IMG/VR virus record: IMGVR_UViG_2541047807_000005
Reading direction: 5' to 3' (one strand)
DNA length: 34,598 nucleotides
DNA from: a virus
Lineage: Duplodnaviria > Heunggongvirae > Uroviricota > Caudoviricetes
Of the stretch, positions 9,345 to 34,598 are shown piece after piece. Within the stretch, counting starts at the first letter, position 1. Each line of letters starts with the position of its first letter. The translations under genes were made by a program, and so were the position numbers. The notes below the pieces were generated by a model. The model did not search any database, was not told the origin of the DNA, and was given only the letters and a program-made list of their open reading frames with translations.

Positions 9345-10157
9345 ATGGGGCATGCTATGATCTTTCTAAGTCATAATCACCGTGACAAAAGGTTTGTAAG
9401 TGTTATAGCGGAAAAACTAGCAGATGTTTATGGGCGTGATAACGTATTCTACGATTCTTGGTCTATCCAACCCGGAGAGGGTATTATTGACAAGATGAAT
9501 TTAGGAATGGAGAATGTATCGTTCTTTTTCTTTTTTGTCACAGAAAATAGCTTGGCAAGTAACATGGTAAAAATGGAATGGCAAAATGCTTTAATTAAGG
9601 CATCGTCCGGGAAGTGTAAATTTATACCAATACGTTGCCAGAATATATCCTTGCCTGCTCTGCTTACTCAAACGCTATATATTGATCTTTATTCGTATGG
9701 GATCGATGTGGCAATAAGACAAATTATAGATGTCATTAATCAACAAAATACGTATATTCCTAATCCTGAGAAGTATTCAAACCTCTCCTATGATATTAAG
9801 GATGATGATGGGGGTAAGATAGTGAAATTATCAGCAATGGATTTTTTAGAACCAATTGCTGATTTTATGATGATTATGGATAATACAATTAAGCATGATG
9901 ATGTTGTTGTTATGGTCAATGGAGAAAGCTCATTCACTCAGGGGTTTATTGAAAATGCATCTTTAGAAAATGGTATGAAAGTAAGTGGTGCCACTGTTGG
10001 CCTAAATCGGGGGTTAACACCAACGATGCCAATGTATGTTTCTCTTAGGTTAAAGGATGGTTCACCTTTGAATATATTTGCGGTGCTACATCGAGTAAGT
10101 ACCGAGCGTTATGCTCCTATACCACATAAAGCCGATGATGCCTTTAGAGTAAAATAA
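9345..10157 (+). CDS. TIR-domain protein (270 aa) with uncharacterised C-terminal domain; candidate anti-phage effector
   Basis: N-terminal region IFLSHNHRDKRFV...DSWSIQPGEGIIDKM...FFFFFVTENSLASNMVKMEW matches bacterial TIR pattern; AT-rich; between cos-like site and portal gene. Confidence 0.7.
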   Translation: MGHAMIFLSHNHRDKRFVSVIAEKLADVYGRDNVFYDSWSIQPGEGIIDKMNLGMENVSFFFFFVTENSLASNMVKMEWQNALIKASSGKCKFIPIRCQNISLPALLTQTLYIDLYSYGIDVAIRQIIDVINQQNTYIPNPEKYSNLSYDIKDDDGGKIVKLSAMDFLEPIADFMMIMDNTIKHDDVVVMVNGESSFTQGFIENASLENGMKVSGATVGLNRGLTPTMPMYVSLRLKDGSPLNIFAVLHRVSTERYAPIPHKADDAFRVK

Positions 10158-18578: not shown

Positions 18579-19316
18579 TCATTCATTGTCAAATAATTTT
18601 TGCTCTTTCAATATTTGTGTCGAAAAATTATTGCTTATTAATTTTACAAGCTTGCCGCACAAATTAAATGAATATCTAAAATAATCTAAGTCAGGGATGA
18701 GGTATTCTTTTTCTTCAGAGGATATTCCTGCCTCTAATAATTTTTTTTCATATCTTTGGTCCTTCACCCAATTATTATGGACTCCTGTGTCTCGTCTTGC
18801 TTTAATTTCAATGTATTGTTTTAAGAGATGTTCTATTTTCTTTTTGTCTAAGCATAAGAGTTTGCATAATTTATTGATGTATTCTTTGGGTGATCCAAAT
18901 GTGAGACTCGCGACTCCTTCGTTGACTAGATAGTCAAAAAGTTCATCTTCAGATAATGACTTAAACACCCCATAATCACACTTAATTTTATTTAGTTTTT
19001 CTGGATTGATCCTGAAGGTCAACTTCATGATTTCAATAATGTAATCTTCAAATGCTGAAACAAGCGAACTAAAGCACAATGATGGCATATGTTTTGTTAT
19101 TAAATCATGCCGTATTCCTTTATCTGAGATTTCAGGTGAATGTTTTTCCAGAAAGCATTCAAGATTTGTATAAGCCTCATAAAGCTGAGGGTTAGTTTCC
19201 TCATTGGCGTGAGAGATGGCAATGTTTTGAAATATAATTGTTCTGAATAAAATATCAGCTTTAATAAAATATGATGATGTGATTTTATCCAGGAAGAGAT
19301 AATTATCGGAGTGCAT
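18579..19316 (-). CDS. AT-rich moron protein (245 aa) with R-x4-H HEPN-like motif; candidate abortive-infection/toxin RNase
   Basis: ORF opposite to the late operon between S and V; GAGGAA RBS; motif ARRDTGVH at residues 174-180 (coords ~18777-18797); strongly AT-rich. Confidence 0.6.
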   Translation of the reverse strand: MHSDNYLFLDKITSSYFIKADILFRTIIFQNIAISHANEETNPQLYEAYTNLECFLEKHSPEISDKGIRHDLITKHMPSLCFSSLVSAFEDYIIEIMKLTFRINPEKLNKIKCDYGVFKSLSEDELFDYLVNEGVASLTFGSPKEYINKLCKLLCLDKKKIEHLLKQYIEIKARRDTGVHNNWVKDQRYEKKLLEAGISSEEKEYLIPDLDYFRYSFNLCGKLVKLISNNFSTQILKEQKLFDNE

Positions 19317-19397: not shown

Positions 19398-19988
19398 ATG
19401 ATACAGGCCATGAACGCACAATTAACCGAAATCATGCGCCTTATCACCAACCTGATCCGCACAGGTGTAGTCACCGAAGTGGACCGGGAAAACTGGCTTT
19501 GCCGGGTGAAAACGGGCGACCTTGAAACCAACTGGATTAGCTGGCTGACGCTGCGTGCCGGGAATGCCCGCACATGGTGGCGACCATCGGAAGGTGAGCA
19601 GGTGGTGCTGCTGAGTCTGGGAGGCAATCTGGAAACCGCCTTTGCGTTGCCCGCTGTCTATTCGAATCAGTTCGCTCCACCGTCGACGTCGGCGGACGCT
19701 TGCGTGACAGAGCATCCTGACGGCGGCTGGTTTGAATATGAACCCGCCACCGGGCGCTGGTATGTCAGGGGCATCAAATCAATGGTCATTGAGGCCGCTG
19801 ACAACATCACCATGAAAACCAGTGAGTTTGTACTGGAGGCTGACCGCACGAGCATTAACAGCGAAGTGGTGATCAATGGTGGCGTTACCCAGGGCGGCGG
19901 AGCGATGAGTTCTAACGGGATCGTGGTTGATGCGCATCAGCATACTGGCGTCCTGAAAGGCGGCGATACAACCGGAGGCCCGGTATGA
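19398..19988 (+). CDS. V: Baseplate spike/assembly protein gpV (alternative start ATG 19410)
   Basis: N-terminus aligns with P2 gpV (LIRTGVVTEVD...CRVKTG); synteny. Confidence 0.85.
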   Translation: MIQAMNAQLTEIMRLITNLIRTGVVTEVDRENWLCRVKTGDLETNWISWLTLRAGNARTWWRPSEGEQVVLLSLGGNLETAFALPAVYSNQFAPPSTSADACVTEHPDGGWFEYEPATGRWYVRGIKSMVIEAADNITMKTSEFVLEADRTSINSEVVINGGVTQGGGAMSSNGIVVDAHQHTGVLKGGDTTGGPV

Positions 19989-20266
19989 CGCTTTATAGCG
20001 GGATGAACAATACCAGCGGCAAAGTCATTACTGATATTGACCATCTGCGCCAGTCGGTGCGGGACATTCTGCTGACACCGCAGGGTAGCCGTATTGCCCG
20101 TCGTGAATATGGTTCCCTGCTGTCGGCACTGATAGACCAGCCACAAAATCCAGCATTACGCCTGCAGGTCATGTCGGCAGTGTATGTGGCGCTGAGCGGG
20201 CAGCGTAATAACGGTGTGCCTGTTTCCCTTTCCGTATCAACAGGAGCAGAGAATGGCAGTGATTGA
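19985..20266 (+). CDS. W: Baseplate protein gpW (lysozyme-like fold family)
   Basis: N-terminal region resembles P2 gpW (DIDHLRQSVRDILLTPQGSRIARREYGSLL); shorter than P2 gpW. Confidence 0.75.
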   Translation: MTLYSGMNNTSGKVITDIDHLRQSVRDILLTPQGSRIARREYGSLLSALIDQPQNPALRLQVMSAVYVALSGQRNNGVPVSLSVSTGAENGSD

Positions 20267-21161
20267 CCTTTCGCAGTTGCCTGCGCCGCAGATTGTGGAT
20301 GTGCCGGACTTTGAGACGCTGCTTGCCGAACGCAAGGCCGAATTTGTTGCGCTTCATCCGAAAGATGAGCAGGAAGCAGTGATCCGCACGCTGGAGCTGG
20401 AATCTGAACCCGTCACTAAATTGTTGCAGGAGAACGCTTACCGTGAGTTGCTTCTGCGCCAGCGCATTAACGAAGCCGCGCAGGCGGTGATGGTGGCTTA
20501 CGCGATGGGCGGCGATCTTGACCAGCTCGCTGCCAACTACAACGTGAAACGCCTGACGGTGACGACTGCTGATAATGATGCTGTGCCGCCCGTTGCAGCT
20601 GTGATGGAAAGCGATGAAGCGTTACGCCTGCGTGTGCCTGCAGCCTTTGAAGGGCTTTCTGTTGCGGGGCCAACTGCAGCTTATGAATTTCATGCCCGAA
20701 GCGCCGACGGCCGGGTGGCGGATGCCAGTGCAACCAGCCCGGCACCTGCAGAGGTGGTGCTGACTGTCCTTAGCCGCGAAGGCGATGGAACTGCAGAAAA
20801 AGACCTGCTGGACGTGGTGGAAAAAGCTCTGAACAGTGAGAACGTCCGCCCGGTGGCTGACCGTCTTACGGTTCGCAGCGCAGAAATCATCCCGTATCGC
20901 GTGGAAGCCACCATTTTTCTCTATCCGGGACCGGAAGCAGAGCCGGTAATGGCAGCGGCAAAAGCCAGCCTGCAGAAGTACATTGCCAGCCAGACGAGGC
21001 TTGGTCGGGATATTCGCCGTAGCGCCATCTTTGCTGCTCTGCATGTTGAGGGTGTTCAACGTGTGGAACTGGCTTCTCCGCTGGCGGATGTGGTCCTGAA
21101 CAAAATACAGGCGGCATCATGTACGCAGTGGAGCGTAACCAACGGAGGAACGGATGAATAG
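20253..21161 (+). CDS. J: Baseplate wedge protein gpJ
   Basis: ATG 20253 with AGGAG RBS; MAVIDLSQLPAPQIVD matches P2 gpJ start. Confidence 0.85.
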   Translation: MAVIDLSQLPAPQIVDVPDFETLLAERKAEFVALHPKDEQEAVIRTLELESEPVTKLLQENAYRELLLRQRINEAAQAVMVAYAMGGDLDQLAANYNVKRLTVTTADNDAVPPVAAVMESDEALRLRVPAAFEGLSVAGPTAAYEFHARSADGRVADASATSPAPAEVVLTVLSREGDGTAEKDLLDVVEKALNSENVRPVADRLTVRSAEIIPYRVEATIFLYPGPEAEPVMAAAKASLQKYIASQTRLGRDIRRSAIFAALHVEGVQRVELASPLADVVLNKIQAASCTQWSVTNGGTDE

Positions 21162-21759
21162 TCTGCTGCCACCGGGTTCAACTTCACTGGAGCGCCGACT
21201 GGCGCAAACCTGTAGCGGGATTTCTGATTTGCAGGTGCCGCTGCGTGACTTGTGGAATCCGGCTACCTGTCCGGTCAGCTTCCTGCCTTATCTCGCCTGG
21301 GCGTTCTCTGTGGATCGCTGGGACGAGGGCTGGACAGAAAGCGTCAAACGCCAGGTAGTGAAGGATGCTTTTTATATTCATCAGCATAAAGGAACCACCA
21401 GTGCCGTGCGGCGGGTGGTGGAACCGTTCGGATTCCTGATCTGCATTATTGAGTGGTGGCAGACCGGAGAAACACCGGGCACGTTTCGCCTGGATATCGG
21501 CGTGCAGGACCAGGGCATCACTGAAGATACCTATCTGGAACTTGAGCGACTGATAAGCGATGCCAAACCATGTAGCCGCCACATGATCGGCATGTCCATC
21601 AATCTGCAGACCAGCGGCCCGCATTGGGTGGGAGCCGCCAGCTATCTTGGCGAAGAAATCACGATCTATCCGTATATCAACGAAACGATTATTTCCGGTG
21701 GCACCGCGCATGAAGGCGGGGCGGTCCATGTTATTGACACAATGAGAGTGAATCCATGA
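21154..21759 (+). CDS. I: Baseplate protein gpI
   Basis: 201 aa, synteny, overlaps J end and H start. Confidence 0.85.
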   Translation: MNSLLPPGSTSLERRLAQTCSGISDLQVPLRDLWNPATCPVSFLPYLAWAFSVDRWDEGWTESVKRQVVKDAFYIHQHKGTTSAVRRVVEPFGFLICIIEWWQTGETPGTFRLDIGVQDQGITEDTYLELERLISDAKPCSRHMIGMSINLQTSGPHWVGAASYLGEEITIYPYINETIISGGTAHEGGAVHVIDTMRVNP

Positions 21760-23165
21760 GCACAAAATTTTATACCCTGCTGACGGATATTGGCGCGGCG
21801 AAACTTGCCAGCGCCGCCGCGCTCGGTGTGCCGCTAAAAATTACCCATATGGCGGTGGGCGATGGCGGCGGAGTATTGCCAACGCCGGACGCAAAGCAGA
21901 CGGCACTGGTAAATGAGAAACGCCGGGCTGCGCTGAATATGCTTTATATCGACCTGCAGAACAGCAGCCAGATTATTGCTGAACAGGTGATCCCTGAAAA
22001 CGAGGGCGGTTGGTGGATACGTGAAGTGGGCCTGTTTGATGAGTCAGGGGCATTGATTGCCGTGGGCAACTGCCCGGAAAGCTATAAGCCGCAACTGGCT
22101 GAAGGCAGCGGGCGCACCCAGACCGTGCGTATGGTGTTGATTACCAGCAGCACGGACAATATCACCCTGAAAATCGACCCTGCCGTAGTGCTGGCAACCC
22201 GCAAGTATGTGGATGACAAGGCACTGGAGCTGAAGGTGTACGTGGATGACCAGCTGGCAAAACACCTTGCCGCACCGGACCCGCATTCACAATATGCACA
22301 GAAAGAAAGTCCGACGTTTACCGGGACACCAAAAGCGCCAACGCCTGCGGCAGGCAATAACACCACGCAGGTTGCGACCACTGCGTTTGTTCAGGCGGCA
22401 CTGACGGCTCTTATTAATGGTGCGCCAGCCACGCTGGACACACTGAAAGAAATAGCCGCAGCCATTAACAATGACCCGAAATTCAGTACCACCATTAATG
22501 ATGCGCTGGCACTCAAAGCGCCGCTGTCGAGTCCTGCACTTACCGGGACGCCGACAGCCCCCACGGCGGCACAGTCGGTCAACAATACACAGATTGCCAC
22601 CACGGCTTTTGTGAAATCGGCGATTGCGGCAATGGTGGGTTCTGCACCTGCTGCACTGGATACACTGAACGAACTGGCGGCGGCGCTGGGAAATGCCCCG
22701 AACTTTGCCACGACAATGTTGAATGCTCTGTCAGGTAAACAACCGCTGGACAATACGCTGACTAATTTGAGTGGAAAGGATGTAGCAGGTCTTCTCACAT
22801 ACCTTGGTTTGGGAGAAGCGGCTAAAAGGAATGTAGGTATAGGGGCGAATCAGATACCTGATATGAGCCTGTTCGCGTCAATTAATACCGTAACGGCTGC
22901 TGCGCAAAAATTTCCGTCTGGATTAATTTTACAGTGCGGTCAGTTGAATGGTGCCCCGAATGTATCTTCAACATACGGGATGAGGTTTCCGATGACGTTC
23001 TCAAGAGTCATTGCTGTCGTAGTTACATTGAACGTTACTGGCGCGGCAGGGCAGCCGACTGTATCGGCGACAAGTGTCCAGAACACTGGATTTAATATTA
23101 CGGTGTCGCCCGGTTCAGGATATGGTTCATCTGCTGATGCGTATTACATTGCAATGGGATATTAA
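21756..23165 (+). CDS. H: Tail fibre protein gpH (conserved N-terminal part, AT-rich variable C-terminal part from ~22800)
   Basis: 469 aa; Ala/Thr-rich repeats; composition shift at the candidate crossover site. Confidence 0.85.
22792..22817. other. Candidate Gin/Hin/Cin-type inversion crossover site TTCTCACATACCTTGGTTTGGGAGAA inside gene H
   Basis: 26-bp imperfect palindrome with ACC..GGTTT core resembling hix/gix/cix sites, at the constant/variable junction of the tail fibre gene. Confidence 0.45.
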
Positions 23166-23169
23166 CGAA

Positions 23170-23589
23170 ATGTCATATTTTTATTCTGCATCGACAAACG
23201 GATTTTATTCGACTGAATTTCACGGCACCAATATTCCTGATGATGCAGTGGAAATCTCGGAATCAGAGTGGAAAACACTGATTAATTCACAGAGTGTAAC
23301 AAAAATGATTACCTGTGGTGAGAACGGTCACCCTGTCATTGTTGACCGTCCTTCTCCAACACCAGAACAATTAGCCTTAATAAATAATGAAAAGAAATCT
23401 GCACTGATAGCAGAGGCAACGAATGTAATAGCGCCGCTTCAGGATGCGGTTGATTTAGATATGGCAACAGATGATGAAACGAAACTGTTACTGGCATGGA
23501 AAAAATATCGCGTGCTATTGATGCGTGTTAATACTTCAACAGCACTCGATATTGAATGGCCTACGTCTCCGGCAGTTCAGGCCCGATGA
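23170..23589 (+). CDS. G: Tail fibre assembly protein gpG (Tfa)
   Basis: ATG 23170 just after H stop; N-terminus [17 protein letters not shown] typical of Tfa chaperones. Confidence 0.75.
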
Positions 23590-24154
23590 CATCCGGCGCG
23601 GTGCTGGTATCTGTTGCCGTCACCGCATCAATGTAATCCAGCACAGCGTTAAGCCGGGTGGTTTCTGTTTGCGACAGTTTTCGCCCGGTCTGCAATTTCA
23701 ACTGAATCAGACTGATGGAAGCCATAGCAGCATCAATCAGTGACTGGCGCTGTACTTCTGCCGTTTCTACTGCGGCACCGTGTTGTGCCTCAGTATCTGT
23801 CACCCATTTCTCACCATCCCATTTATCGTATGGCGTTAACGGTGAAAGCGTGACATAACCGTCTTTGATGGCACCGATATAATCCACAGTAATAGCTGCG
23901 CCATTTTCTGTTGAGTAAACAGTCTCATTGCGATGGTCTTCTTCATGGCTCCATCCCTTGCCCGTAAATACTGCCACTTTCCCCGGAATGTTTTCGCCCG
24001 GGGCAATACCAGTGGAACAGGCGGGCATACTTACACCAGTATTAATATATTCATCAGAGCAGCCCATATACTCAGATGTTTCAGCATCATAATAAAAACA
24101 ACGCATATCGCCCGGCACTGTAGCCAGCCCATTTTCATCAAAAACAGGTTTCAT
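23561..24154 (-). CDS. Alternative tail fibre assembly protein (inverted-orientation Tfa, U-prime-like), orphan
   Basis: Tfa-like N-terminus ([29 protein letters not shown]); convergent with G, 3-prime ends overlap; no cognate alternative fibre C-terminus present. Confidence 0.7.
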
Positions 24155-24179
24155 TATTTAGCCCTCACCAGAAAGTTAA

Positions 24180-24437
24180 ATGCAATATTTTTTTTATGTC
24201 ATGGGTGCTCTGGCTGAAATGGAACGCGAACTGATAGTTGAACGCACCAGGGCAGGGCTGGCTGCAGCTCGTGCCAAAGGCAGAGTAGGTGGACGCCGTA
24301 CTAAGTTGACCACCGAACAGTGGGCACAGATTGGACGTTTACTCGAGGCCGGAGAATCAAGACAACGTATTGCACTGATTTTTGATGTGGGCGTTTCTAC
24401 CATTTATAGAAAATTTCCGGCGAATAAGAGCAATTAA
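24180..24437 (+). pseudogene. Truncated serine DNA invertase (Gin/Hin/Pin family), C-terminal ~85 aa only
   Basis: FFYVMGALAEMERELIVERTRAGLAAARAKGRVGGR... matches the C-terminal half of Gin; N-terminal catalytic domain (~100 aa incl. active-site Ser) absent. Confidence 0.8.
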
Positions 24438-24494
24438 TCGCTCTGAATCAGCATTATTTTGATTATCCCTGCAAGTAGACAAATACCCTCATTT

Positions 24495-24512
24495 TGTATG
24501 AATAACTGTACA
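24495..24512. promoter_or_regulatory. Late-promoter activator dyad TGT-N12-ACA upstream of FI
   Basis: TGTATGAATAACTGTACA centred ~85 bp upstream of FI start codon. Confidence 0.55.
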
Positions 24513-24588
24513 ACTACACTTAGCTGTTTGTCAGGCACAATCACTTCAACATAGGGCGAAGCCTAATCCAATCAGGAGGTTCGCCACT

Positions 24589-25761
24589 ATGGCTCAGGAT
24601 TACCACCACGGGGTGCGCGTTGTTGAAGTCAACGAAGGCACCCGATCCATTACCACGGAGAGCACCGCCATCGTGGGCATGGTCTGCACGGGCGATGATG
24701 CCGATGCAAAAATGTTTCCTCTTAATAAACCCGTACTGATCACTGATGTGCTGACTGCCAGCGGTAAAGCGGGTGAGTCCGGCACGCTGGCCCGTTCGCT
24801 GGATGCCATCGCTGACCAGGCAAAACCAGTGACCGTTGTTGTGCGTGTGCCGCAGGGTGAAACGGAAGAAGAAACCACGACCAATATCATCGGCGCAGTG
24901 ACTGCTGAAGGTAAAAAAACAGGCATGAAAGCCCTGTTATCTGCCCAGACACAGCTCGGCGTTAAACCGCGCATTCTCGGCGTGCCAGGTCACGATAACA
25001 AAGCCGTTGCTACTGAGTTGCTGAGCGTGGCGCAAAGCCTGCGTGGGTTTGCCTACCTGTCAGCGTATGGCTGCAAGACGGTACAGGAGGCGATCACTTA
25101 CCGTGAAAACTTCAGCCAGCGCGAAGGAATGCTGATCTGGCCCGACTTTACTGGCTGGGACACGGTGCTGAATGCCGAAGCAACGGCATATGCCACCGCT
25201 CGTGCGCTTGGTCTGCGTGCCAAAATTGATGAGCAGACCGGGTGGCACAAAAGCCTGTCCAACGTGGGCGTGAACGGTGTCACCGGAATTTCTGCAGATG
25301 TGTTCTGGGATCTGCAGGACCCGGCAACCGATGCAGGTCTGCTTAACCAGAACGATATCACCACGCTTATCCGCAAAGACGGTTTCCGCTTCTGGGGTTC
25401 CCGCTGTCTGGGCGATGATCCGCTCTTTGCCTTCGAAAACTACACCCGCACGGCGCAGGTGCTGATGGACACGATGGCAGAAGCACACATGTGGGCGGTG
25501 GATAAACCGCTTAACCCGTCGCTGGCCCGCGACATTATTGAAGGTATCCGCGCCAAAATGCGCAGCCTGGTCAGTCAGGGCTATCTCATTGGTGGTGATT
25601 GCTGGCTGGATGAGTCGGTGAACGACAAAGACACGCTGAAAGCCGGAAAACTCACCATCGACTATGACTACACGCCAGTGCCGCCACTTGAAAATCTGAT
25701 GCTGCGCCAGCGCATCACCGATCAGTACCTGGTGAATTTCGCCAGCCAGGTCAGCGCGTAA
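24589..25761 (+). CDS. FI: Tail sheath protein gpFI
   Basis: 390 aa, AGGAGG RBS, synteny and size. Confidence 0.9.
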
Positions 25762-25770
25762 GGGGACAAC

Positions 25771-26286
25771 ATGGCTTTACCACGCAAATTAAAACACCTG
25801 AACCTGTTTAACGACGGGAACAACTGGCAGGGGATCGTTGAGTCGCTGACGCTGCCGAAATTCACCCGCAAATATGAGAAGTATCGCGGCGGCGGAATGC
25901 CGGGTGCAGTGGATGTGGATCTGGGGCTTGATGACAGTGCTCTGGACACAGAATTTTCCATTGGTGGTACTGAACTGCTGCTGTTTAAGCAGATGGGCAA
26001 AGCCACTGTGGATGGCATCCAGCTGCGCTTTACCGGCTCTATCCAGCGTGACGATACCGGGGAAGTGCAGGCTGTGGAGCTTGTGGTGCGTGGACGTCAC
26101 AAAGAAGTGGATTCCGGCGAGTGGAAGACGGGCGAAAGCAACACCACCAAAGTGACCAGTACCAACAGCTACGCGAAGCTGACCATCAATGGTGAGGTGC
26201 TCTATGAAGTGGACCTTATCAACATGGTGGAAATTGTGGATGGTGTGGACCTGATGGAAGCACACCGCAACGCACTCGGCCTCTGA
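25771..26286 (+). CDS. FII: Tail tube protein gpFII
   Basis: 171 aa, synteny and size. Confidence 0.9.
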   Translation: MALPRKLKHLNLFNDGNNWQGIVESLTLPKFTRKYEKYRGGGMPGAVDVDLGLDDSALDTEFSIGGTELLLFKQMGKATVDGIQLRFTGSIQRDDTGEVQAVELVVRGRHKEVDSGEWKTGESNTTKVTSTNSYAKLTINGEVLYEVDLINMVEIVDGVDLMEAHRNALGL

Positions 26287-26340
26287 TCTATCTGAACGGC
26301 GAGGAATACCGCGCCAGAAACCAATTTAAAGGACAGCAAA

Positions 26341-26643
26341 ATGAGCGATAAGCAGACTGAAAAGACCATTCAACTGGATACCCCCATCAAGCGCGGTAAA
26401 ACGGAAATCACCGAAATTGTGCTGCGTAAACCGCAGTCCGGTGCGCTGCGCGGTACACGCCTGCAGGCCATTATGGATATGGATGTGAACGCGATGATGA
26501 CCGTGATCCCCCGCATCTCCAGTCCGGCACTGACTGCACAGGAAATTGCAGAGATGGACCCGGCAGATCTCACTGCCATGTCGGTTGAGGTTGTCACTTT
26601 TTTGTTGAAGAAGTCGGTGCTTGCCGGTTTACCGACAGCCTGA
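26341..26643 (+). CDS. E: Tail assembly chaperone gpE
   Basis: 100 aa ORF before tape measure gene. Confidence 0.8.
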   Translation: MSDKQTEKTIQLDTPIKRGKTEITEIVLRKPQSGALRGTRLQAIMDMDVNAMMTVIPRISSPALTAQEIAEMDPADLTAMSVEVVTFLLKKSVLAGLPTA

Positions 26644-26777
26644 CGGTTGACGATCTGGTGGCTGATATCGCCACCATCTTTCACTGGCCGCCATCCGTTA
26701 CTGACGTTATGCCGCTGACCGAAGTGCTGGAATGGCGGTATAAAGCGATTCAGAGAAGCGGGGCCAACGATGAGTGA
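26341..26777 (+). CDS. gpE+E-prime, predicted -1 programmed frameshift product (slip at 26598-26604)
   Basis: Slippery heptamer T TTT TTG in the E frame; -1 frame stays open to TGA at 26775-26777, overlapping T start. Confidence 0.6.
26598..26604 (+). promoter_or_regulatory. Slippery heptamer TTTTTTG for -1 ribosomal frameshift
   Basis: X XXY YYZ-type sequence in frame near 3-prime end of E, as in P2 E/E+E-prime and lambda G/GT. Confidence 0.6.
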
Positions 26778-29700
26778 TAATAACCTGCGCCTGCAGGTCA
26801 TTCTTAATGCGGTTGACAAACTCACCCGCCCATTTCGATCTGCGCAGGCCAGTTCAAGAGAACTGGCTGCTGCTGTCAAAAAATCCCGCGATGCAATAAA
26901 GCAGCTTGATCAGGCCGGGAGCAGTCTGGACAGCTTCCGAAAGCTGCAGGCAGAAAATCAGAAATTAGGCGACAGGCTGAACTATGCCCGCCAGCGTGCC
27001 AATTTGCTCAGTCAGGAACTGGGAGCGATGGGGCCGCCTTCGCAACGTCAGGTTGTCGCTCTGGGCCGTCAACGGCTGGCTGTTCAGCGCCTGGAAGAAC
27101 GCCAGAAAAAGCTGCAGCAGCAGACGGCGCTTGTGCGTGCAGAACTTTATCGTGCTGGTATTTCAGCTAATGATGGCGCCAGTGCGACGGCCCGCATTAC
27201 CCGTGAAACGATGCGTTATAACAGGCAGCTTTCTGAGCAGGAAGCGAGGTTACGACGTGTCGGGGAGCAACAGCGAAAAATGCACGCCGCCCGGGGGGCT
27301 TACGTCAGGCGTCTTGAGGTAAGGGATCGTATTGCAGGTGCTGGAGCCACCACCACGGCGGCAGGGCTGGCAATGGGCGCGCCAGTGATGGCGGCAGTAA
27401 AAAGCTATACCAGCATGGAAGATGCCATGAAAGGTGTGGCAAAGCAGGTCAATGGTCTGCGTGACGATAATGGCAACCGCACTGCACGTTTTTATGAAAT
27501 GCAGGATGCCATCAAGGCTGCCAGCGAACAGTTGCCGATGGAAAACGGTGCTGTGGACTTCGCCGCACTGGTTGAAGGTGGTGCGCGCATGAACGTCTCA
27601 AACCCTGATGACAGCTGGGAAGACCAGAAACGTGACCTGCTGGCCTTCGCCAGTACGGCTGCGAAGGCGGCAACAGCCTTTGAGCTGCCAGCGGATGAAC
27701 TGTCAGAAAGTCTGGGGAAAATCGCCCAGCTCTACAAAATACCTACCCGCAATATTGAACAGCTCGGCGATGCGCTGAACTATCTGGATGATAACGCCAT
27801 GTCGAAAGGGGCGGACATCATTGATGTGATGCAACGTCTGGGCGGTGTGGCTGACCGTCTGGATTATCGTAAAGCGGCGGCACTGGGTTCCACCTTTCTG
27901 ACACTGAGCGCTGCGCCGGAGGTTGCAGCCAGTGCAGCAAACGCGATGGTGCGTGAATTGTCCATTGCCACCATGCAAAGCAAGAGTTTCTTTGAAGGGA
28001 TGAATCTGCTGAAACTCAATCCTGAAGTGATTGAAAAGCAGATGACGAAGGATGCGATGGGAACTATCCAGCGTGTGCTGGAGAAGGTGAACGCACTGCC
28101 GCAGGACAAGCGTCTGTCTGCCATGACCATGTTGTTTGGTAAAGAGTTTGGCGATGACGCAGCGAAACTGGCAAACAACCTGCCGGAACTGCAGCGCCAG
28201 TTAAAACTGACAGCGGGCAATGATGCGCTCGGCTCCATGCAGAAAGAATCCGACATTAACAAGGATTCACTTTCTGCGCAGTGGTTGCTGGTCAAAACCA
28301 CTGCGCAGAATACCTTCAGCAGCCTGGGCGAAACGCTGCGCCAGCCGCTGATGGATATTCTGTACACGGTGAAAAGCGTCACGGGGGCGTTGCGTCGCTG
28401 GGTGGAAGCTAACCCGGAACTGACGGGCACACTGATGAAAGTAGCAGCGGTTGTGGCTGCCGTTACCGTGGGCCTCGGCACCCTGGCTGTGGTGTTGGCT
28501 GCAGTGCTGGGGCCGCTGGCAGTGATCCGTCTGGGATTCTCTGTGCTGGGTATCAAAACGTTACCTTCCGTTACGGCAGCAGTAACACGAACCAGCAGCG
28601 CGTTGTCCTGGCTGGCTGGCGCTCCACTGGCAGTGCTGCGACGCGGGCTTGCTTCATCGGGTAACGCAGCGGGTTTACTTACTGCGCCGTTGTCGTCTTT
28701 GCGCCGTATGGCATCACTGACGGGAAATGTCCTGAAAACTGTAGCAGGTGCGCCGGTTGCACTATTGCGGTCCGGTTTATCCGCTTTACGTGCTGTTGCT
28801 GTGATGTTTATGAATCCTCTGGCGGTACTGCGCGGTGGACTGGCTGCCGCAGGCGCGGTGCTTCGTGTGCTGGCATCTGGTCCGCTGGCGATGCTGCGCG
28901 TTGCCCTGTATGCCGTATCTGGTCTGTTAGGTGCTCTGCTCAGTCCGATAGGTCTTGTGGTTACTGCACTGACGGGTGTGGCGCTGGTTGTCTGGAAATA
29001 CTGGCAACCCATCACCGCATTTCTCGGTGGCGTGGTGGAAGGATTCAAAGCGGCGGCAGGTCCCATCAGTGCAGCATTCGAACCACTTAAGCCTGTGTTT
29101 CAGTGGATTGGCGACAAAGTGCAGGCGCTGTGGGGCTGGTTTACTGATCTGCTGACGCCCGTTAAGTCGACCTCTGCTGAACTGCAGAGCGCAGCGGCAA
29201 TGGGGCAACGATTCGGGGAGGCACTGGCGGAAGGACTGAATATGGTCATGCATCCGCTGGACTCCCTGAAATCCGGCGTATCCTGGTTGCTGGAAAAACT
29301 CGGCATTGTCAGTAAAGAGGCCGCAAAGGCAAAACTGCCGGAAAGCGTGACGCGTCAGCAACCTGCGACGGTGAATGCAGACGGCAAAGTGATGATACCA
29401 TCGGGTGGTTTTCCGTCATGGGGATATGGCTTTGCGGGGATGTATGACAGCGGCGGCTATATCCCGCGCGGGCAGTTTGGCATCGTCGGTGAAAACGGGC
29501 CTGAAATTATCAACGGCCCGGCAAATGTGACCAGCCGGAAAAATACAGCTGCACTGGCTGCCGTTGTTGCCGGAATGATGGGCGTTGCTGCCGCGCCTGC
29601 AGAGCTTCCACCGTTACATCCTTTGGCACTTCCCGCGAAAGGCGGCGAAGCGATGGTGAGTCGTGCAGCCACTGTGCCGCCCGTTCAACGGATTGAGGCA

Positions 29701-29847
29701 CCGACGCAGATCATCATTCAGACGCAGCCAGGACAAAGTGCGCAGGATATTGCGCGGGAGGTGGCCCGCCAGCTTGATGAACGTGAACGCAGGCTGAAGG
29801 CAAAAGCCAGGAGTAACTACAGCGATCAGGGGGGATACGACGCATGA
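26770..29847 (+). CDS. T: Tail tape measure protein gpT
   Basis: 1025 aa, coiled-coil N-terminal region, hydrophobic Ala/Leu/Val-rich central region; synteny. Confidence 0.9.
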   Translation: MSDNNLRLQVILNAVDKLTRPFRSAQASSRELAAAVKKSRDAIKQLDQAGSSLDSFRKLQAENQKLGDRLNYARQRANLLSQELGAMGPPSQRQVVALGRQRLAVQRLEERQKKLQQQTALVRAELYRAGISANDGASATARITRETMRYNRQLSEQEARLRRVGEQQRKMHAARGAYVRRLEVRDRIAGAGATTTAAGLAMGAPVMAAVKSYTSMEDAMKGVAKQVNGLRDDNGNRTARFYEMQDAIKAASEQLPMENGAVDFAALVEGGARMNVSNPDDSWEDQKRDLLAFASTAAKAATAFELPADELSESLGKIAQLYKIPTRNIEQLGDALNYLDDNAMSKGADIIDVMQRLGGVADRLDYRKAAALGSTFLTLSAAPEVAASAANAMVRELSIATMQSKSFFEGMNLLKLNPEVIEKQMTKDAMGTIQRVLEKVNALPQDKRLSAMTMLFGKEFGDDAAKLANNLPELQRQLKLTAGNDALGSMQKESDINKDSLSAQWLLVKTTAQNTFSSLGETLRQPLMDILYTVKSVTGALRRWVEANPELTGTLMKVAAVVAAVTVGLGTLAVVLAAVLGPLAVIRLGFSVLGIKTLPSVTAAVTRTSSALSWLAGAPLAVLRRGLASSGNAAGLLTAPLSSLRRMASLTGNVLKTVAGAPVALLRSGLSALRAVAVMFMNPLAVLRGGLAAAGAVLRVLASGPLAMLRVALYAVSGLLGALLSPIGLVVTALTGVALVVWKYWQPITAFLGGVVEGFKAAAGPISAAFEPLKPVFQWIGDKVQALWGWFTDLLTPVKSTSAELQSAAAMGQRFGEALAEGLNMVMHPLDSLKSGVSWLLEKLGIVSKEAAKAKLPESVTRQQPATVNADGKVMIPSGGFPSWGYGFAGMYDSGGYIPRGQFGIVGENGPEIINGPANVTSRKNTAALAAVVAGMMGVAAAPAELPPLHPLALPAKGGEAMVSRAATVPPVQRIEAPTQIIIQTQPGQSAQDIAREVARQLDERERRLKAKARSNYSDQGGYDA

Positions 29848-30329
29848 TGATGGTGCTGGGATTGTACGTGTTTATGCTGCGCACCGTGCCGTATCAGGAA
29901 CTGCAGTATCAACGCAGCTGGCGACATGCGGCAAACAGCCGGGTAAACCGTCGTCCGTCCACGCAGTTTCTGGGACCGGAAAACGATATGCTGACGCTTT
30001 CCGGTGTTCTTATGCCGGAGATAACAGGCGGCAGGCTGTCGTTGCTGGCACTGGAGCAGATGGCAGAACAGGGGAAAGCATGGCCCCTGATTGAAGGCAG
30101 CGGCACGATTTACGGCATGTATGTGATTGAGGGACTGAATCAGACTAAAACGGAGTTTTTCCGCGACGGTATGCCGCGCCGGATTGAGTTCACCCTGTCG
30201 CTAAAACGGGTGGATGAATCCCTGTCCGATATGTTCGGTGATCTCAGTACTCAACTGAATAATCTGCAGGACACGGCAACGTCTGCTTTAAGCGATATCA
30301 GTAAAACGGTGGGAGGGCTGCTGTCGTGA
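29844..30329 (+). CDS. U: Tail protein gpU
   Basis: 161 aa, overlaps T stop, synteny. Confidence 0.8.
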   Translation: MMMVLGLYVFMLRTVPYQELQYQRSWRHAANSRVNRRPSTQFLGPENDMLTLSGVLMPEITGGRLSLLALEQMAEQGKAWPLIEGSGTIYGMYVIEGLNQTKTEFFRDGMPRRIEFTLSLKRVDESLSDMFGDLSTQLNNLQDTATSALSDISKTVGGLLS

Positions 30330-31434
30330 ATTTCAGCTCTGAACTGCTTAACAAAGGCAACAAAACTCCGGCATTCAGCATCAGTGTTGAGGGCAGGGAT
30401 ATCACCACTGTGCTGGACAACCGCCTGATGGGGCTTACGCTGACGGATAACCGGGGCTTTGAAGCGGACCAGCTTGATCTGGAGCTGGACGACGCTGATG
30501 GAAAAATCGTGCTGCCGCGCCGTGGTGCGGTCATTACGCTGGCGCTGGGCTGGAAGGGACAGCCGCTTTTCCCGAAAGGGGCATTCACGGTGGACGAGAT
30601 TGAACACACTGGCGCACCGGACCGCCTGACCATCCGGGCGCGAAGTGCTGATTTTCGGGAAACGCTGAATACCCGCCGTGAAAAATCGTGGCACAAGACC
30701 ACGGTCGGGGAAGTGGTGAAGGAAATAGCTGCGCGGCACAAACTGAAGATGGCACTGGGTAAAGACCTGTCGGATAAGCCCGTGGAACATATAGACCAGA
30801 CCAATGAGAGTGACGGCAGTTTTCTGATGCGGCTGGCGCGCCAGTACGGTGCTATTGCGTCGGTGAAAAATGGCAATCTGTTATTCATCCGGCAGGGACA
30901 GGGCAAAAGCGCCAGCGGTAAACCTCTGCCGGTGATCACTATCACACGCAAGGACGGCGACAGTCACCGCTTTACCCTGGCAGATCGCGGAGCCTATACG
31001 GGCGTAATTGCCAGTTGGTTGCATACCCGCGAACCCGCGAACCCGCGAAGAAAGAAAGCACCACGGTGAAGCGTAAGCGCAGGACCGCAAAGCAGAAGAA
31101 AGAGCCGGAAGCGAAGCAGGGCGATTACCTGGTGGGTACGGATGAAAACGTGCTGGTACTTAATCGCACTTATGCCAACCGGAGCAACGCCGAACGGGCA
31201 GCGAAAATGCAGTGGGAACGCCTGCAACGCGGCGTTGCATCATTCTCGCTACAACCGGCGGAAGGGCGGGCAGATCTCTACACAGAAATGCCTGTGAAGG
31301 TCAGTGGCTTTAAACAGCCGATAGATGATGCGGAATGGACCATTACGACTCTGACGCATACCGTCAGCCCGGATAACGGTTTTACGACCAGTCTGGAGCT
31401 TGAAGTGAGGATTGATGATTTCGAAATGGAATGA
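30326..31434 (+). pseudogene. D: Tail protein gpD, interrupted by frameshift at an 8-bp tandem repeat (two ORFs 30326..31069 and 31015..31434)
   Basis: The two ORFs together equal P2 gpD length (~386 aa) and both resemble gpD; removing one CCCGCGAA copy fuses the frames. Confidence 0.75.
31026..31049 (+). repeat. Tandem octamer CCCGCGAA x3 within gene D
   Basis: Three perfect direct copies at 31026-31033, 31034-31041, 31042-31049. Confidence 0.9.
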
Positions 31435-31524
31435 TTCTTCGCAATGGAGAACTTTTAAGTTTGCAAAATGGAATGATGCGGTATCATTATTGTGAATTTA
31501 GCAAAAATGGGGAGAACTCGAAAA

Positions 31525-31743
31525 ATGATGATTTGCCCACTGTGCGGAAGTGCCGCCCATACTCGCAGCAGTTTTCAGGTATCTTCATTGACCAAAGAGC
31601 GTTACAACCAGTGCCAGAACATTAACTGCAGCCATACTTTTGTTACCCATGAAACTTTTGTTCGTTCGATTGCAACGCCAAAAGAGTCAAATCCGGTTCA
31701 GCCGCATCCAATGAAATCAGGACAGGTGGCGCTCTCTCTTTGA
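31525..31743 (+). CDS. ogr: Ogr late-gene transcriptional activator (zinc finger)
   Basis: 72 aa from ATG 31525; CPLCGSAAH...ERYNQCQNINCSHTF matches P2 Ogr pattern. Confidence 0.85.
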   Translation: MMICPLCGSAAHTRSSFQVSSLTKERYNQCQNINCSHTFVTHETFVRSIATPKESNPVQPHPMKSGQVALSL

Positions 31744-31823
31744 CGCTGCCGCCATTTTGTCGCCATCGTTAAAAAACAGTGCTTCTAACGTCATGATTTT
31801 AAACGGCATAAATTTCAGGCAAC

Positions 31824-31866
31824 AAAAAACCCATCAACCTTGAACCGAAATGGCGGGGTTGATGGG
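31824..31866 (-). terminator. Intrinsic terminator on minus strand, likely for ybjL
   Basis: 10-bp inverted repeat CCCATCAACC / GGTTGATGGG with a U run on the minus strand, ~110 nt past ybjL stop. Confidence 0.5.
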
Positions 31867-31978
31867 CTCCACAAAATGGGGACATCAAAGAAAAGCAGTG
31901 GCACTAATTAAGACTGATGCCCTGCGGAAAAGTTCTGCGGTTGTGCAAAAAAATTTCATTTTCAGGGCAACTTCAGTT

Positions 31979-33664
31979 TTATCCTAATCCTGGCCATACC
32001 ATGACGATGATTGTCCCTGCCAGCGTCAGCAGGACGTTGGCGATTGCATAGGTGCCCGCATAGCCCAGCGCCGGGATGTTACTGCGAGCTGTATCACTGA
32101 TGATCTCCATTGCCGGCGCGCAGGTGCGTGCGCCCATCATTGCGCCGAACAACAGTGCGCGGTTCATTCGCAATACATAAGCACCGAACAAGAAACAGAT
32201 AACCACTGGCACAAGACTGACAATTAATCCGGCAATCAACATCTGACCGCCAATCGTGCCCAGGCCGTTATTAATACCGCTACCGGCGCTCAGACCAACG
32301 CCTGCCATAAACACCATTAAGCCGAACTCTTTCACCATGCTTAATGCACCCTGCGGAATGTAACCGAAGGTCGGGTGGTTAGCGCGCATAAATCCCAGCA
32401 TAATTCCGGCGAATAACAACCCGGCAGCGTTCCCCATGCCGAAACTGAATGTGCTGAACTGGAAGGTGATCATCCCGATCATCAGCCCAATAACAAAGAA
32501 GGCGCAGAATGCCAGCAAGTCAGTGACCTGGCTATGAATCGAGATAAAGCCGATGCGATCGGCGATGGTTTTTACGCGACGGGCATCGCCGCTGACTTGT
32601 AAAACGTCACCTTTGTTAAGCACGACGTTGTCATCTATCGGCATCTCAATCTGGCTACGAATGACGCGGTTAAGGAAGCAACCGTGATCGGTCAACTTCA
32701 GTTGTGCGAGACGTTTGCCAACGGCGTTATGGTTTTTAACGACCACTTCTTCAGTGACGATACGCATGTCGAGAAGGTCACGATCGAAAACTTCTTTGCC
32801 GTTACGGAAGCTGGGATCGAGTCGGGCGTGGGCGTCGGGATAGCCTACCAACGCTATTTCATCGCCCATTTGTAGCACAGCATCACCGTCTGGATTCGCC
32901 AGAATCCCGTTACGTCGAATACGTTCAATGTAGCAGCCAGTTTGTCGATAAATACCCAGTTCACGCAGATTTTTGCCGTCGGTCCAGGCCACCAGCTCCG
33001 GGCCGACGCGGTAGGCGCGGATCACCGGTAAATAAACCTTACGGTTGGCATCAGTGTCCAGGCCACGTTCGCGGGCGATTTGCTGGGCGCTGGTCTGTAA
33101 GTCCTGATGCTGCAATTTCGGCAAGTAACGCGCACCAACAATCAAACTCACCAGACCGATTAAATAGGTTAAGGCATACCCGAGGCTCAGATTATCCAGT
33201 GCCAGTGAGAGCTGCCTGCTTTCCATGCCGGAATGACGCAGTGTATCGCCAGCACCGACCAGAACCGGTGTTGACGTCATAGAGCCAGCTAACATACCGG
33301 CCGTCAGGCCAATATCCCAGCCAAACAGCTTACCTAACCCTAAGGCGATCACCAGCGCACTGCCAACCATCACCAGTGCTAACATTAGGTAATTTTTCCC
33401 ATCGCGAAAAAAAATGGAAAAAAAGTTCGGTCCGGCTTCGACCCCGACGCAGAAAATAAACAGCATAAAGCCAAGATTAAGCGCGTCGGTGTTAATGCTG
33501 AAATGTTGTTGGCCTAATAACAGCGATACGACTAAAACGCCAATGGAATTACCCAGTTGGATCGAACCAAGTCGTAATTTCCCGAGACATAGCCCAAGCG
33601 CGAGGACCACAAATAATAACAGAATGTAATTCCCATTTAACAATTCGGCGACGTTTATATTCAC
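31979..33664 (-). CDS. ybjL: Putative transport protein YbjL (YidE/YbjL family)
   Basis: 561 aa multi-pass membrane protein; sequence recalled as E. coli YbjL. Confidence 0.85.
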
Positions 33665-33933
33665 GGAGGCTAACTTCTTGTTTACTAGTAAGCTGTTGAA
33701 AGAAATGGTAATTTACGATAATGTTTTTTACCAGAATTCAGGGCGCAGATTCATTCAGCGCACCTAAACGATAGTAAAGTAACAATATATTTTACTAGTG
33801 TAATCACATTAGGTATCAACGGCTATATGAATTGCGTTGGCCTATATTAGCATGGAATGCGAAGCGGCTTTATCTTACTGAACGCCACACTGGCGAAAAA
33901 TGTGTTCGATAGACGCAGTGTCAGGAGGAACGA

Positions 33934-34311
33934 GTGAAACATAAACAACGTTGGGCGGGGGCAATCTGCTGTTTTGTCCTCTTCATTGTGGTGTGTCTTT
34001 TTCTGGCGACGCACATGAAAGGCGCTTTTCGGGCTGCCGGGCATCCTGAAATCGGTTTGCTATTTTTCATTCTTCCTGGTGCAGTTGCCAGCTTCTTTTC
34101 ACATCGTAGAGAAGTCCTGAAACCTCTGTTTGGCGCAATGCTGGCGGCACCCTGTTCGATGCTCATTATGCGGCTGTTTTTTTCACCGACGCGCTCATTC
34201 TGGCAAGAGCTGGCATGGTTATTAAGTGCGGTGTTCTGGTGTGCGCTGGGGGCATTGTGTTTCTTATTTATCAGTAGTTTGTTTAAACCACAGCACAGAA
34301 AAAATCAATAA
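33934..34311 (+). CDS. ybjM: Inner membrane protein YbjM
   Basis: 125 aa hydrophobic protein, GTG start; conserved neighbour of grxA in E. coli. Confidence 0.75.
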   Translation: MKHKQRWAGAICCFVLFIVVCLFLATHMKGAFRAAGHPEIGLLFFILPGAVASFFSHRREVLKPLFGAMLAAPCSMLIMRLFFSPTRSFWQELAWLLSAVFWCALGALCFLFISSLFKPQHRKNQ

Positions 34312-34330
34312 AGCCCTCAACGCGAGGGCT
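34312..34330 (-). terminator. Hairpin AGCCCTC-aacgc-GAGGGCT between ybjM and grxA, likely grxA terminator
   Basis: 7-bp GC-rich stem, T-rich tract on the minus strand after the stem. Confidence 0.4.
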
Positions 34331-34340
34331 TGTCAGACGA

Positions 34341-34598
34341 TCAGGCGTCCAGATTCTCTTTCACCCATGCAGCAAAATCGGTATAGCCGCCGATATGTTG
34401 CTGATCGACAAAAATCTGCGGCACGGTTTCTACGGGTTTACCTGCCTTTTGTTGTAGATCTTCTTTAGTGATCCCTTCCGCACGAATATCTACATACTGA
34501 TACTGGAAATCATCGCGTTCATTGCTCAATTTCTCAGCCAGATCTTTTGCACGCACACAGTAAGGGCAACCCGGACGACCAAAAATAACGGTTTGCAT
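34341..34598 (-). CDS. grxA: Glutaredoxin 1
   Basis: 85 aa, CPYC active site; start codon at last 3 bases of window. Confidence 0.9.
   Translation of the reverse strand: MQTVIFGRPGCPYCVRAKDLAEKLSNERDDFQYQYVDIRAEGITKEDLQQKAGKPVETVPQIFVDQQHIGGYTDFAAWVKENLDA

What the first reader, a model, noticed from the sequence alone, without database searches (positions are those of the whole stretch)
31026..31049. Frameshift in essential tail gene D caused by a triplicated 8-bp repeat
CCCGCGAA occurs three times in tandem exactly where the gpD reading frame breaks into two ORFs. Deleting one copy restores a single ~384-aa frame encoding ...HTREPAKKESTT..., so the ancestral state probably had two copies. 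This is either an inactivating slipped-strand duplication (a cryptic, tail-defective prophage), a reversible copy-number switch, or a sequencing or assembly error.
Basis: seen in the sequence. Interest (0 to 1): 0.65.

Follow-up and report, generated by a model that had tools for sequence, protein, structure and literature searches.

The report
Slippage frameshift kills prophage tail gene
An extra copy of an 8-base repeat has broken the baseplate-hub gene of a P2-like prophage in one E. coli lineage; it is a real, inherited mutation at a site that slips repeatedly, and an ordinary case of a prophage decaying.

Summary
CCCGCGAA occurs three times in tandem at 31026-31049 and splits gpD (baseplate hub, Pfam Phage_GPD) into a 247-aa and a 139/122-aa ORF. 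Removing one unit restores a 366-aa protein (not ~384 aa). It is not an assembly error: the exact truncated product is on 137 public contigs, including strains AA86, M605 and three complete Japanese genomes where PGAP marks the gene 'frameshifted'. Two copies is the normal state: 775 of 779 complete E. coli genomes alignable across the site, and the Klebsiella phage 4LV2017 genome record. The prophage is decaying. Sister strains carry a second frameshift in the tape measure gene (35 contigs). The window itself has a 78-bp deletion in baseplate gene W (59 contigs). The site is a recurrent slippage hotspot: the +8 expansion appears on at least four different gpD alleles, a -8 contraction in strain JP538, and a 4-copy state on the window's own allele (16 contigs). 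Every non-2-copy state seen is out of frame, and I found no canonical ribosomal-frameshift signal. A regulated reversible switch is unlikely, although occasional reversion cannot be excluded. Verdict: ordinary slipped-strand pseudogenisation of an essential tail gene, with low novelty.

The parts
31026..31049 (+). Three perfect tandem copies of CCCGCGAA. The third copy is the +8 insertion that shifts the gpD reading frame.
   Evidence: orthologues have two copies
30326..31434 (+). The whole gpD (baseplate hub, 'late control D') pseudogene. With one repeat unit removed it is 1101 nt / 366 aa.
   Evidence: Pfam Phage_GPD scores 96.3 bits on the restored protein, spanning residues 67-345. PGAP marks the identical gene 'frameshifted' in Rb-23, TUM14697 and 1002W03.
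30326..31069 (+). 5' ORF of the broken gene: 247 aa, made of 239 native residues plus the 8 out-of-frame residues NPRRKKAPR... , ending at TGA 31067-31069.
   Evidence: this exact product is on 137 public contigs
31015..31434 (+). 3' ORF in the -1 frame, carrying the C-terminal third of the hub domain. Gene callers start it at TTG 31015 (139 aa) or at GTG 31066 (122 aa). The GTG overlaps the ORF1 stop codon as GTGA.
   Evidence: Pfam Phage_GPD profile positions 215-302
31050..31058 (+). Adjacent GAAAGAAAG run, a second small slippage-prone tract. Another E. coli allele (P0018) has lost 4 nt here.
   Evidence: P0018 tail ...EPAKKAPR
19985..20266 (+). Baseplate gene W (gp25 family) with a 78-bp in-frame deletion between 11-bp direct repeats. 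One copy of the repeat remains at 20186-20196. This is a second tail lesion, private to the window's sublineage.
   Evidence: The Pfam score falls from 50.2 to 26.0 bits, below the 27.2 cut-off. The 93-aa product is on 59 contigs.
26770..29847 (+). Tape measure gene, intact in the window. The GGGG run at 28509-28512 is GGG in the three Japanese sister strains, which is a second frameshift in that sublineage.
   Evidence: intact product on 98 contigs, 584-aa truncated product on 35 contigs
31524..31742 (+). ogr/Delta late-gene activator, the last prophage gene before the chromosomal gene ybjL. It is intact and fixes the synteny U-D-ogr.

Best explanation
A replication slippage event added one 8-bp unit to a CCCGCGAA dimer inside gpD. 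gpD encodes the baseplate hub of a P2-like (Elveevirus-like, Peduoviridae) prophage integrated between rcdA and ybjL of E. coli. The +8 shift makes translation stop 8 codons later. The product has only the first 239 of 366 residues and lacks the C-terminal third of the single Phage_GPD domain. From what is known of P2 gene D, the prophage should be unable to build tails or infectious particles. This is inferred, not tested here. The mutation was fixed in a clonal host lineage and inherited vertically. With no selection left on the tail module, sublineages gained further lesions: -1 G in the tape measure gene, a 78-bp deletion in gene W, and a further gain to four repeat units. The dimer itself is a mutational hotspot. 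It is perfect in most alleles, and the CGCG cores of adjacent units can pair as a small hairpin on either strand, which could stabilise a looped-out unit (inferred).
For: The repeat and the frame break are real. The same 3-copy gene, 100% identical, is in three complete genomes, annotated 'frameshifted', in M605 and in metagenome assemblies. The exact product is on 137 contigs. Two copies is the norm: 775 of 779 full-coverage complete E. coli records, A16 and Klebsiella phage 4LV2017. Nested secondary lesions: tape measure -G in Rb-23, TUM14697 and 1002W03 (35 contigs), and the gpW 78-bp deletion in the window only (59 contigs; Pfam below cut-off). Recurrence: 3 copies on the L006 allele, which is 95.8% identical to the window but 99.0% identical to the intact KE58 allele. 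3-copy products also exist on the P0004 and A16-like alleles. JP538 has 1 copy and is annotated 'frameshifted'. A 4-copy product exists on the window's allele (16 contigs). The break lies inside one Pfam hub domain, residues 67-345, homologous to the R2 pyocin hub 6u5h_C. A CGCG-N4-CGCG hairpin of -4.6 to -4.8 kcal/mol forms on both strands.
Against: Loss of function is inferred from sequence alone; there are no induction or plaque data. The break falls in a variable, Lys/Arg-rich linker, and ORF1's stop codon overlaps a GTG start for the C-terminal fragment, so a two-piece hub is not formally excluded. An exact 2-copy product on the same protein background exists on 6 contigs. These could be revertants rather than ancestors.
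Confidence: 0.88

Rival explanations
1. Reversible copy-number switch (contingency locus). The octamer tract gains and loses units often enough that a lysogen population keeps toggling tail production OFF (3 or 4 units) and ON (2 or 5 units).
For: Copy number is polymorphic on one identical protein background: 2 copies on 6 contigs, 3 on 137, 4 on 16. The same site has slipped independently on other alleles. The repeat can form a small hairpin.
Against: The tract has only 2-4 units, far shorter than typical contingency tracts (established knowledge of Haemophilus and Neisseria loci). All derived states seen (1, 3, 4 copies) are out of frame, and no 5-copy product was found. All 3-copy DNA loci retrieved are uniformly 3-copy. 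Two other essential tail genes have been lost in sublineages holding 35 and 59 of the roughly 137 contigs, which should not happen if the ON state were under selection. Among complete genomes, 775 of 779 hold 2 copies.
Confidence: 0.06
2. Sequencing or assembly artefact: the true genome has two copies.
For: None found. Short tandem repeats can in principle be miscounted.
Against: The identical 3-copy sequence is in three independently assembled complete genomes, the M605 draft genome, several ENA metagenome assemblies and an IMG/VR provirus. The exact truncated product is indexed in 242 blocks and on 137 contigs.
Confidence: 0.01
3. The gene still works. Either a low-level -1 ribosomal slip in the 31015-31066 overlap makes some full-length hub, or termination-reinitiation at the GTGA overlap (31066-31069) makes a C-terminal fragment that assembles with the N-terminal fragment across a flexible linker.
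For: ORF2 is in the -1 frame and open through the overlap. Weak single-tRNA slip sites C_CCG (31042) and A_AAG (31051) are present, and the ORF1 stop overlaps a GTG. The break lies in a linker that varies in length, and an extra Pro is tolerated there in strain WEC. Only three hub subunits would be needed per virion if, as expected for hub proteins of contractile tails, gpD forms a trimer (from memory, not checked here).
Against: There is no canonical X_XXY_YYZ heptamer, no long homopolymer and no clear Shine-Dalgarno sequence before the GTG. The two-ORF arrangement is not conserved: 3 of 779 complete-genome records. The split cuts through a single Pfam domain. Secondary tail lesions and a shift to a different frame in the 4-copy form indicate relaxed selection.
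Confidence: 0.05

Closest known systems
P2 gene D (baseplate hub; Pfam PF05954 Phage_GPD) and its conditional-lethal mutants
   Same: Same gene family and same position in the tail operon (T-U-D-ogr). The restored protein matches Phage_GPD at 96.3 bits, is 54% identical to P2 gpD, and has E = 3e-52 to the R2 pyocin hub 6u5h_C. Truncation is expected to give the tail-defective phenotype of P2 D mutants. This rests on classical P2 genetics recalled from memory; I found no readable paper here to cite for it.
   Different: The lesion here is a natural +8 frameshift fixed in a wild lineage, not a laboratory amber mutation. The gene belongs to the Elveevirus-like branch (96-97.5% protein identity to Klebsiella phages), not to P2 itself.
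Defective or cryptic prophages decaying by point lesions and deletions
   Same: A single inactivating lesion is followed by further independent lesions in descendant lineages. Related contigs show large deletions and rearrangements (L006, L117, L125, L128).
   Different: This is a very early stage. Only gpD, gene W and an invertase remnant are damaged in the window, and every other gene is annotated intact in the sister strain.
Simple-sequence-repeat contingency loci (slipped-strand phase variation, e.g. in Haemophilus and Neisseria)
   Same: The repeat unit is not a multiple of 3, lies inside a coding region, and its copy number differs among close relatives.
   Different: The tract is very short (2-4 units), reversibility has not been shown, the OFF states predominate, and neighbouring essential genes are decaying.
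Programmed -1 frameshift of P2 tail chaperone genes E/E'
   Same: Both are two overlapping ORFs in a -1 relationship in the same tail operon. The genuine E/E' site T_TTT_TTG is present at 26598-26604.
   Different: The gpD overlap has no slippery heptamer, and the split is absent from nearly all homologues.

Membership tests
Phage_GPD baseplate hub (P2 gpD family) | Pfam PF05954 match above the gathering score | tested here: met
   Restored protein scores 96.3 bits and the 5' ORF 60.2 bits, against a cut-off of 30.1. The 3' ORF scores 29.8 bits, just below it.
Phage_GPD baseplate hub (P2 gpD family) | Position between gpU and ogr at the end of the tail operon | tested here: met
   PGAP annotation of the identical locus in Rb-23, and the gene tables of the carrier contigs.
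Phage_GPD baseplate hub (P2 gpD family) | A single uninterrupted ORF covering the whole domain (functional member) | tested here: not met
   The frame is broken at 31026-31049 with a stop at 31067-31069. PGAP flags it 'frameshifted'.
Slipped-strand (tandem-repeat) frameshift pseudogene | A perfect tandem repeat, with a unit not divisible by 3, lies exactly at the frame break | tested here: met
   (CCCGCGAA)x3, 100% matches.
Slipped-strand (tandem-repeat) frameshift pseudogene | Intact orthologues differ by a whole number of repeat units | tested here: met
   Two units in 775 complete E. coli records, in A16 and WEC, and in Klebsiella phage 4LV2017. The exact 2-copy product on the same background exists.
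Slipped-strand (tandem-repeat) frameshift pseudogene | Heritable: the same state is found in independent assemblies of related strains | tested here: met
   137 contigs, three complete genomes, M605, and metagenome assemblies.
SSR phase-variable contingency locus | Copy-number variation among close relatives | tested here: met
   Products for 2, 3 and 4 copies on an identical protein background.
SSR phase-variable contingency locus | A long tract that gives a high switching rate (usually 5 or more units) | tested here: not met
   Only 1-4 units were seen anywhere. Products for 5 and 6 units are absent.
SSR phase-variable contingency locus | ON and OFF states interconvert within a clone | not testable with these tools
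   This needs reads or amplicon sequencing. The DNA of the 2- and 4-copy carriers could not be fetched.
SSR phase-variable contingency locus | The switched function is otherwise kept intact by selection | tested here: not met
   The tape measure frameshift (35 contigs) and the gpW deletion (59 contigs) arose inside the 3-copy lineage.
Programmed -1 ribosomal frameshift | A slippery heptamer X_XXY_YYZ in the ORF overlap | tested here: not met
   None in 31012-31066; only the tetramers C_CCG and A_AAG.
Programmed -1 ribosomal frameshift | The two-ORF arrangement is conserved among homologues | tested here: not met
   3 of 779 complete-genome records have it.
Programmed -1 ribosomal frameshift | A stimulatory downstream RNA structure | tested here: inconclusive
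   The 75 nt downstream fold at -14.2 kcal/mol without an obvious well-placed hairpin. No shuffle control was run.

The most novel reading that the evidence does not exclude
The octamer dimer in gpD of Elveevirus-like P2 prophages acts as a low-rate, reversible on/off site. Most cells of the lineage carry a tail-dead prophage that keeps its immunity and its TIR/DUF4145 accessory genes. Rare 3-to-2 revertants, possibly the 6 contigs with the exact intact product, regain infectivity, which would be a bet-hedging prophage. A variant of this idea is that the truncated hub, switched on by the Ogr protein of an incoming related phage, poisons that phage's baseplate assembly.
Probability: 0.06. Interest if true: 0.6.

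Novelty: new member of a known kind. Interest (0 to 1): 0.22.

Why it matters
In practical terms, this prophage should be scored as defective, not as an active P2-like phage, in AA86, M605, Rb-23 and their relatives. The example also shows clearly how prophage decay starts. One slippage event hits an essential tail gene, and different second hits follow in different sublineages, so the order of the lesions can be read from public assemblies. The 16-bp dimer is shared by hundreds of E. coli and Klebsiella P2-like prophages, and it has slipped independently at least five times. That makes it a predictable weak point and a useful marker for judging whether such prophages are intact. It does not reveal a new mechanism.

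Tried and rejected
(1) The GTDB species-representative scan for (CCCGCGAA)x3 returned 96 loci. The 80 listed are unrelated GC-rich microsatellites in Actinomycetota, Acidobacteriota and similar groups.
(3) Looking up the shared 122-aa downstream ORF showed only 3-copy places.
(4) Allele-marker scans of IMG/VR and of the metagenome collection, with a pattern allowing any copy number, found 16 two-copy loci. All are 94-98% relatives, not the window's own prophage.
(6) Literature searches found no description of this lesion or hotspot. A 2026 P2-tail cryo-EM preprint was listed but could not be opened. Two other papers said nothing relevant about P2 gpD.
(7) Programmed frameshifting was considered and rejected, because there is no slippery heptamer and the arrangement is not conserved.
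(8) The mosaic metagenome scaffold L111 was not used as evidence, because it may be an assembly chimera.

Full report
**Observation**

Window positions 31026-31049 read CCCGCGAACCCGCGAACCCGCGAA. Tandem Repeats Finder gives period 8, 3.1 copies and 100% matches. None of 100 dinucleotide-preserving shuffles of the window contains the 24-mer, even with two mismatches allowed. The reading frame breaks at this point. ORF 30326-31069 (247 aa) ends ...HTREPANPRRKKAPR*, and an overlapping ORF in the -1 frame (31015-31434, 139 aa) carries the rest of the protein. Removing one unit gives a 1101-nt frame of 366 aa that reads ...HTREPAKKESTT....

**What the gene is**

The window is a P2-like prophage integrated between rcdA and ybjL of E. 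coli, with the gene order tape measure, gpU, gpD, ogr.
- The restored protein matches Pfam Phage_GPD ("phage tail baseplate hub") at 96.3 bits over residues 67-345. The break therefore lies inside one domain.
- Its closest solved relative is the hub of the R2 pyocin baseplate, 6u5h_C, at E = 3e-52.
- It is 96-97.5% identical to gpD of Klebsiella Elveevirus phages and about 54% identical to gpD of P2.
- The repeat encodes the start of a Lys/Arg-rich linker. That linker aligns poorly with the pyocin hub and is about 17 residues longer in P2.

**The mutation is real and inherited**

- The 1109-bp gene is 100% identical in three complete genomes from Japan: Rb-23, TUM14697 and 1002W03. PGAP marks it "frameshifted" in all three.
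- The exact 247-aa product is indexed in 242 blocks of the public assembly collection and on 137 contigs. These include strains AA86 and M605 and several metagenome assemblies, always at the same chromosomal site.
- An IMG/VR provirus (L007) and a metagenome contig (L130) carry the same 3-copy gene at 100% and 99.98% identity over the stretches held.

An assembly error is excluded.

**Two copies is the normal state**

With a 78-nt junction query, 779 complete E. coli records align across the site. Of these, 775 have two units, 3 have three units, and one (strain WEC) has two units plus an extra CCC and is intact. Strain A16 has an imperfect dimer and an intact gene. The genome record of Klebsiella phage 4LV2017 has the perfect dimer and an intact gpD.

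**The prophage is decaying**

- The three Japanese strains differ from the window, over 7.1 kb, by a single missing G in the GGGG run at 28509-28512. This frameshifts the tape measure gene. The resulting 584-aa product is on 35 contigs, and the intact one is on 98.
- The window has its own second lesion. A 78-bp in-frame deletion between 11-bp direct repeats removes 26 residues of baseplate protein W and drops its Pfam score below the family cut-off. That 93-aa product is on 59 contigs.
- An invertase next to the tail-fibre genes survives only as a C-terminal remnant.

The gpD frameshift is shared by both sublineages, and each sublineage has a private second hit. The most parsimonious order is gpD first, then loss of constraint on the tail module. 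This order is an inference.

**The site is a hotspot**

- L006 is a scrambled prophage remnant that also has three copies. Its gpD is only 95.8% identical to the window, with differences right next to the repeat, but 99.0% identical to the intact two-copy allele of strain KE58. Its expansion is therefore independent.
- Exact look-ups found three-copy products on two further allele backgrounds.
- Strain JP538 has a one-copy contraction, also annotated "frameshifted".
- Another allele has lost 4 nt in the adjacent GAAAGAAAG run.
- On the window's own protein background there is a four-copy product on 16 contigs and the intact two-copy product on 6 contigs. Products for 1, 5 and 6 copies are absent.
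- The CGCG cores of neighbouring units can pair as a 4-bp hairpin on either strand, at -4.6 to -4.8 kcal/mol. This could stabilise a looped-out unit; that role is inferred.

**Rivals**

- A regulated reversible switch is unlikely. The tract is short, every derived state seen is out of frame, and other essential tail genes are being lost. It is not excluded, because I could not fetch the DNA of the 2- and 4-copy carriers to see whether the 2-copy strains are ancestors or revertants.
- Translational rescue is also unlikely. The overlap has no X_XXY_YYZ heptamer, only the weak tetramers C_CCG and A_AAG. The two-ORF form is found in 3 of 779 complete-genome records.
- One feature keeps a two-piece hub formally possible. 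ORF1's stop codon overlaps a GTG start (GTGA, 31066-31069) for the 122-aa C-terminal fragment, and the split is in a variable linker. However, there is no clear ribosome-binding site.

**Comparison and novelty**

This is slipped-strand pseudogenisation of an essential phage tail gene in an otherwise nearly intact prophage. The kind of event is well known, and RefSeq already flags the gene as frameshifted. Three things appear to be new, since I found no published description: the cause, the recurrent use of the same octamer dimer on different alleles, and the nested order of lesions. Loss of tail function is inferred from sequence and from classical P2 genetics recalled from memory, and was not shown here.

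**Verdict**

Interest is low to modest.

Noticed in passing
window 19985-20266 (junction 20186-20196): Baseplate gene W (gp25 family) has a 78-bp in-frame deletion between two 11-bp direct repeats (GTGGCGCTGAG). It removes RWEPRLTLDSITINSNFDGSMVVALS. Sister strain Rb-23 has the full gene. The short product is on 59 public contigs.
   Followed up: yes
window 28509-28512 (tape measure gene 26770-29847): This GGGG run is GGG in Rb-23, TUM14697 and 1002W03, which frameshifts their tape measure gene. The window's copy is intact. The truncated 584-aa product is on 35 contigs.
   Followed up: yes
window 24183-24437: A remnant of a serine invertase: only the last 33 residues of the catalytic domain plus the HTH_7 domain. 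It sits beside two tail-fibre-assembly genes in opposite orientations. This looks like an invertible host-range segment that can no longer flip.
   Followed up: partly
window 8246-8986 (-) and 9357-10157 (+): Two accessory genes lie between the replication region and the portal gene: a DUF4145 protein (weak PADLOC match to PD-T7-4) and a TIR-domain protein (weak matches to TIR-NLR and PDC-S66). They may be anti-phage cargo, which could explain why a defective prophage is kept.
   Followed up: partly
window 18579-19316 (-): A 245-aa hypothetical gene on the opposite strand, inserted between the tail/virion-morphogenesis genes and baseplate gene V. It has no PADLOC match.
   Followed up: partly
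window 26598-26604: The expected programmed -1 frameshift site T_TTT_TTG of the tail chaperone genes E/E' is present, and in the correct frame.
   Followed up: partly
L006, L117, L125, L128, L132: Several IMG/VR and metagenome contigs carrying related gpD genes are heavily deleted or rearranged P2-like remnants. Pieces of the prophage are joined out of order.
   Followed up: no
L111 (ENA ERZ28647082 scaffold_15), aligned to window 21064-34598: This metagenome scaffold has 141 mismatches to the window upstream of about 29990 and is identical downstream. It still shares both the -G at 28509 and the 3-copy gpD. It is either a recombinant prophage or an assembly chimera.
   Followed up: partly
L104 (E. 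coli WEC, NZ_CP114592.1) locus 1-829: A different P2-like prophage, at ssrA, has an intact gpD with an extra proline codon next to the repeat. Its tape measure and gpU genes are both annotated as frameshifted.
   Followed up: no
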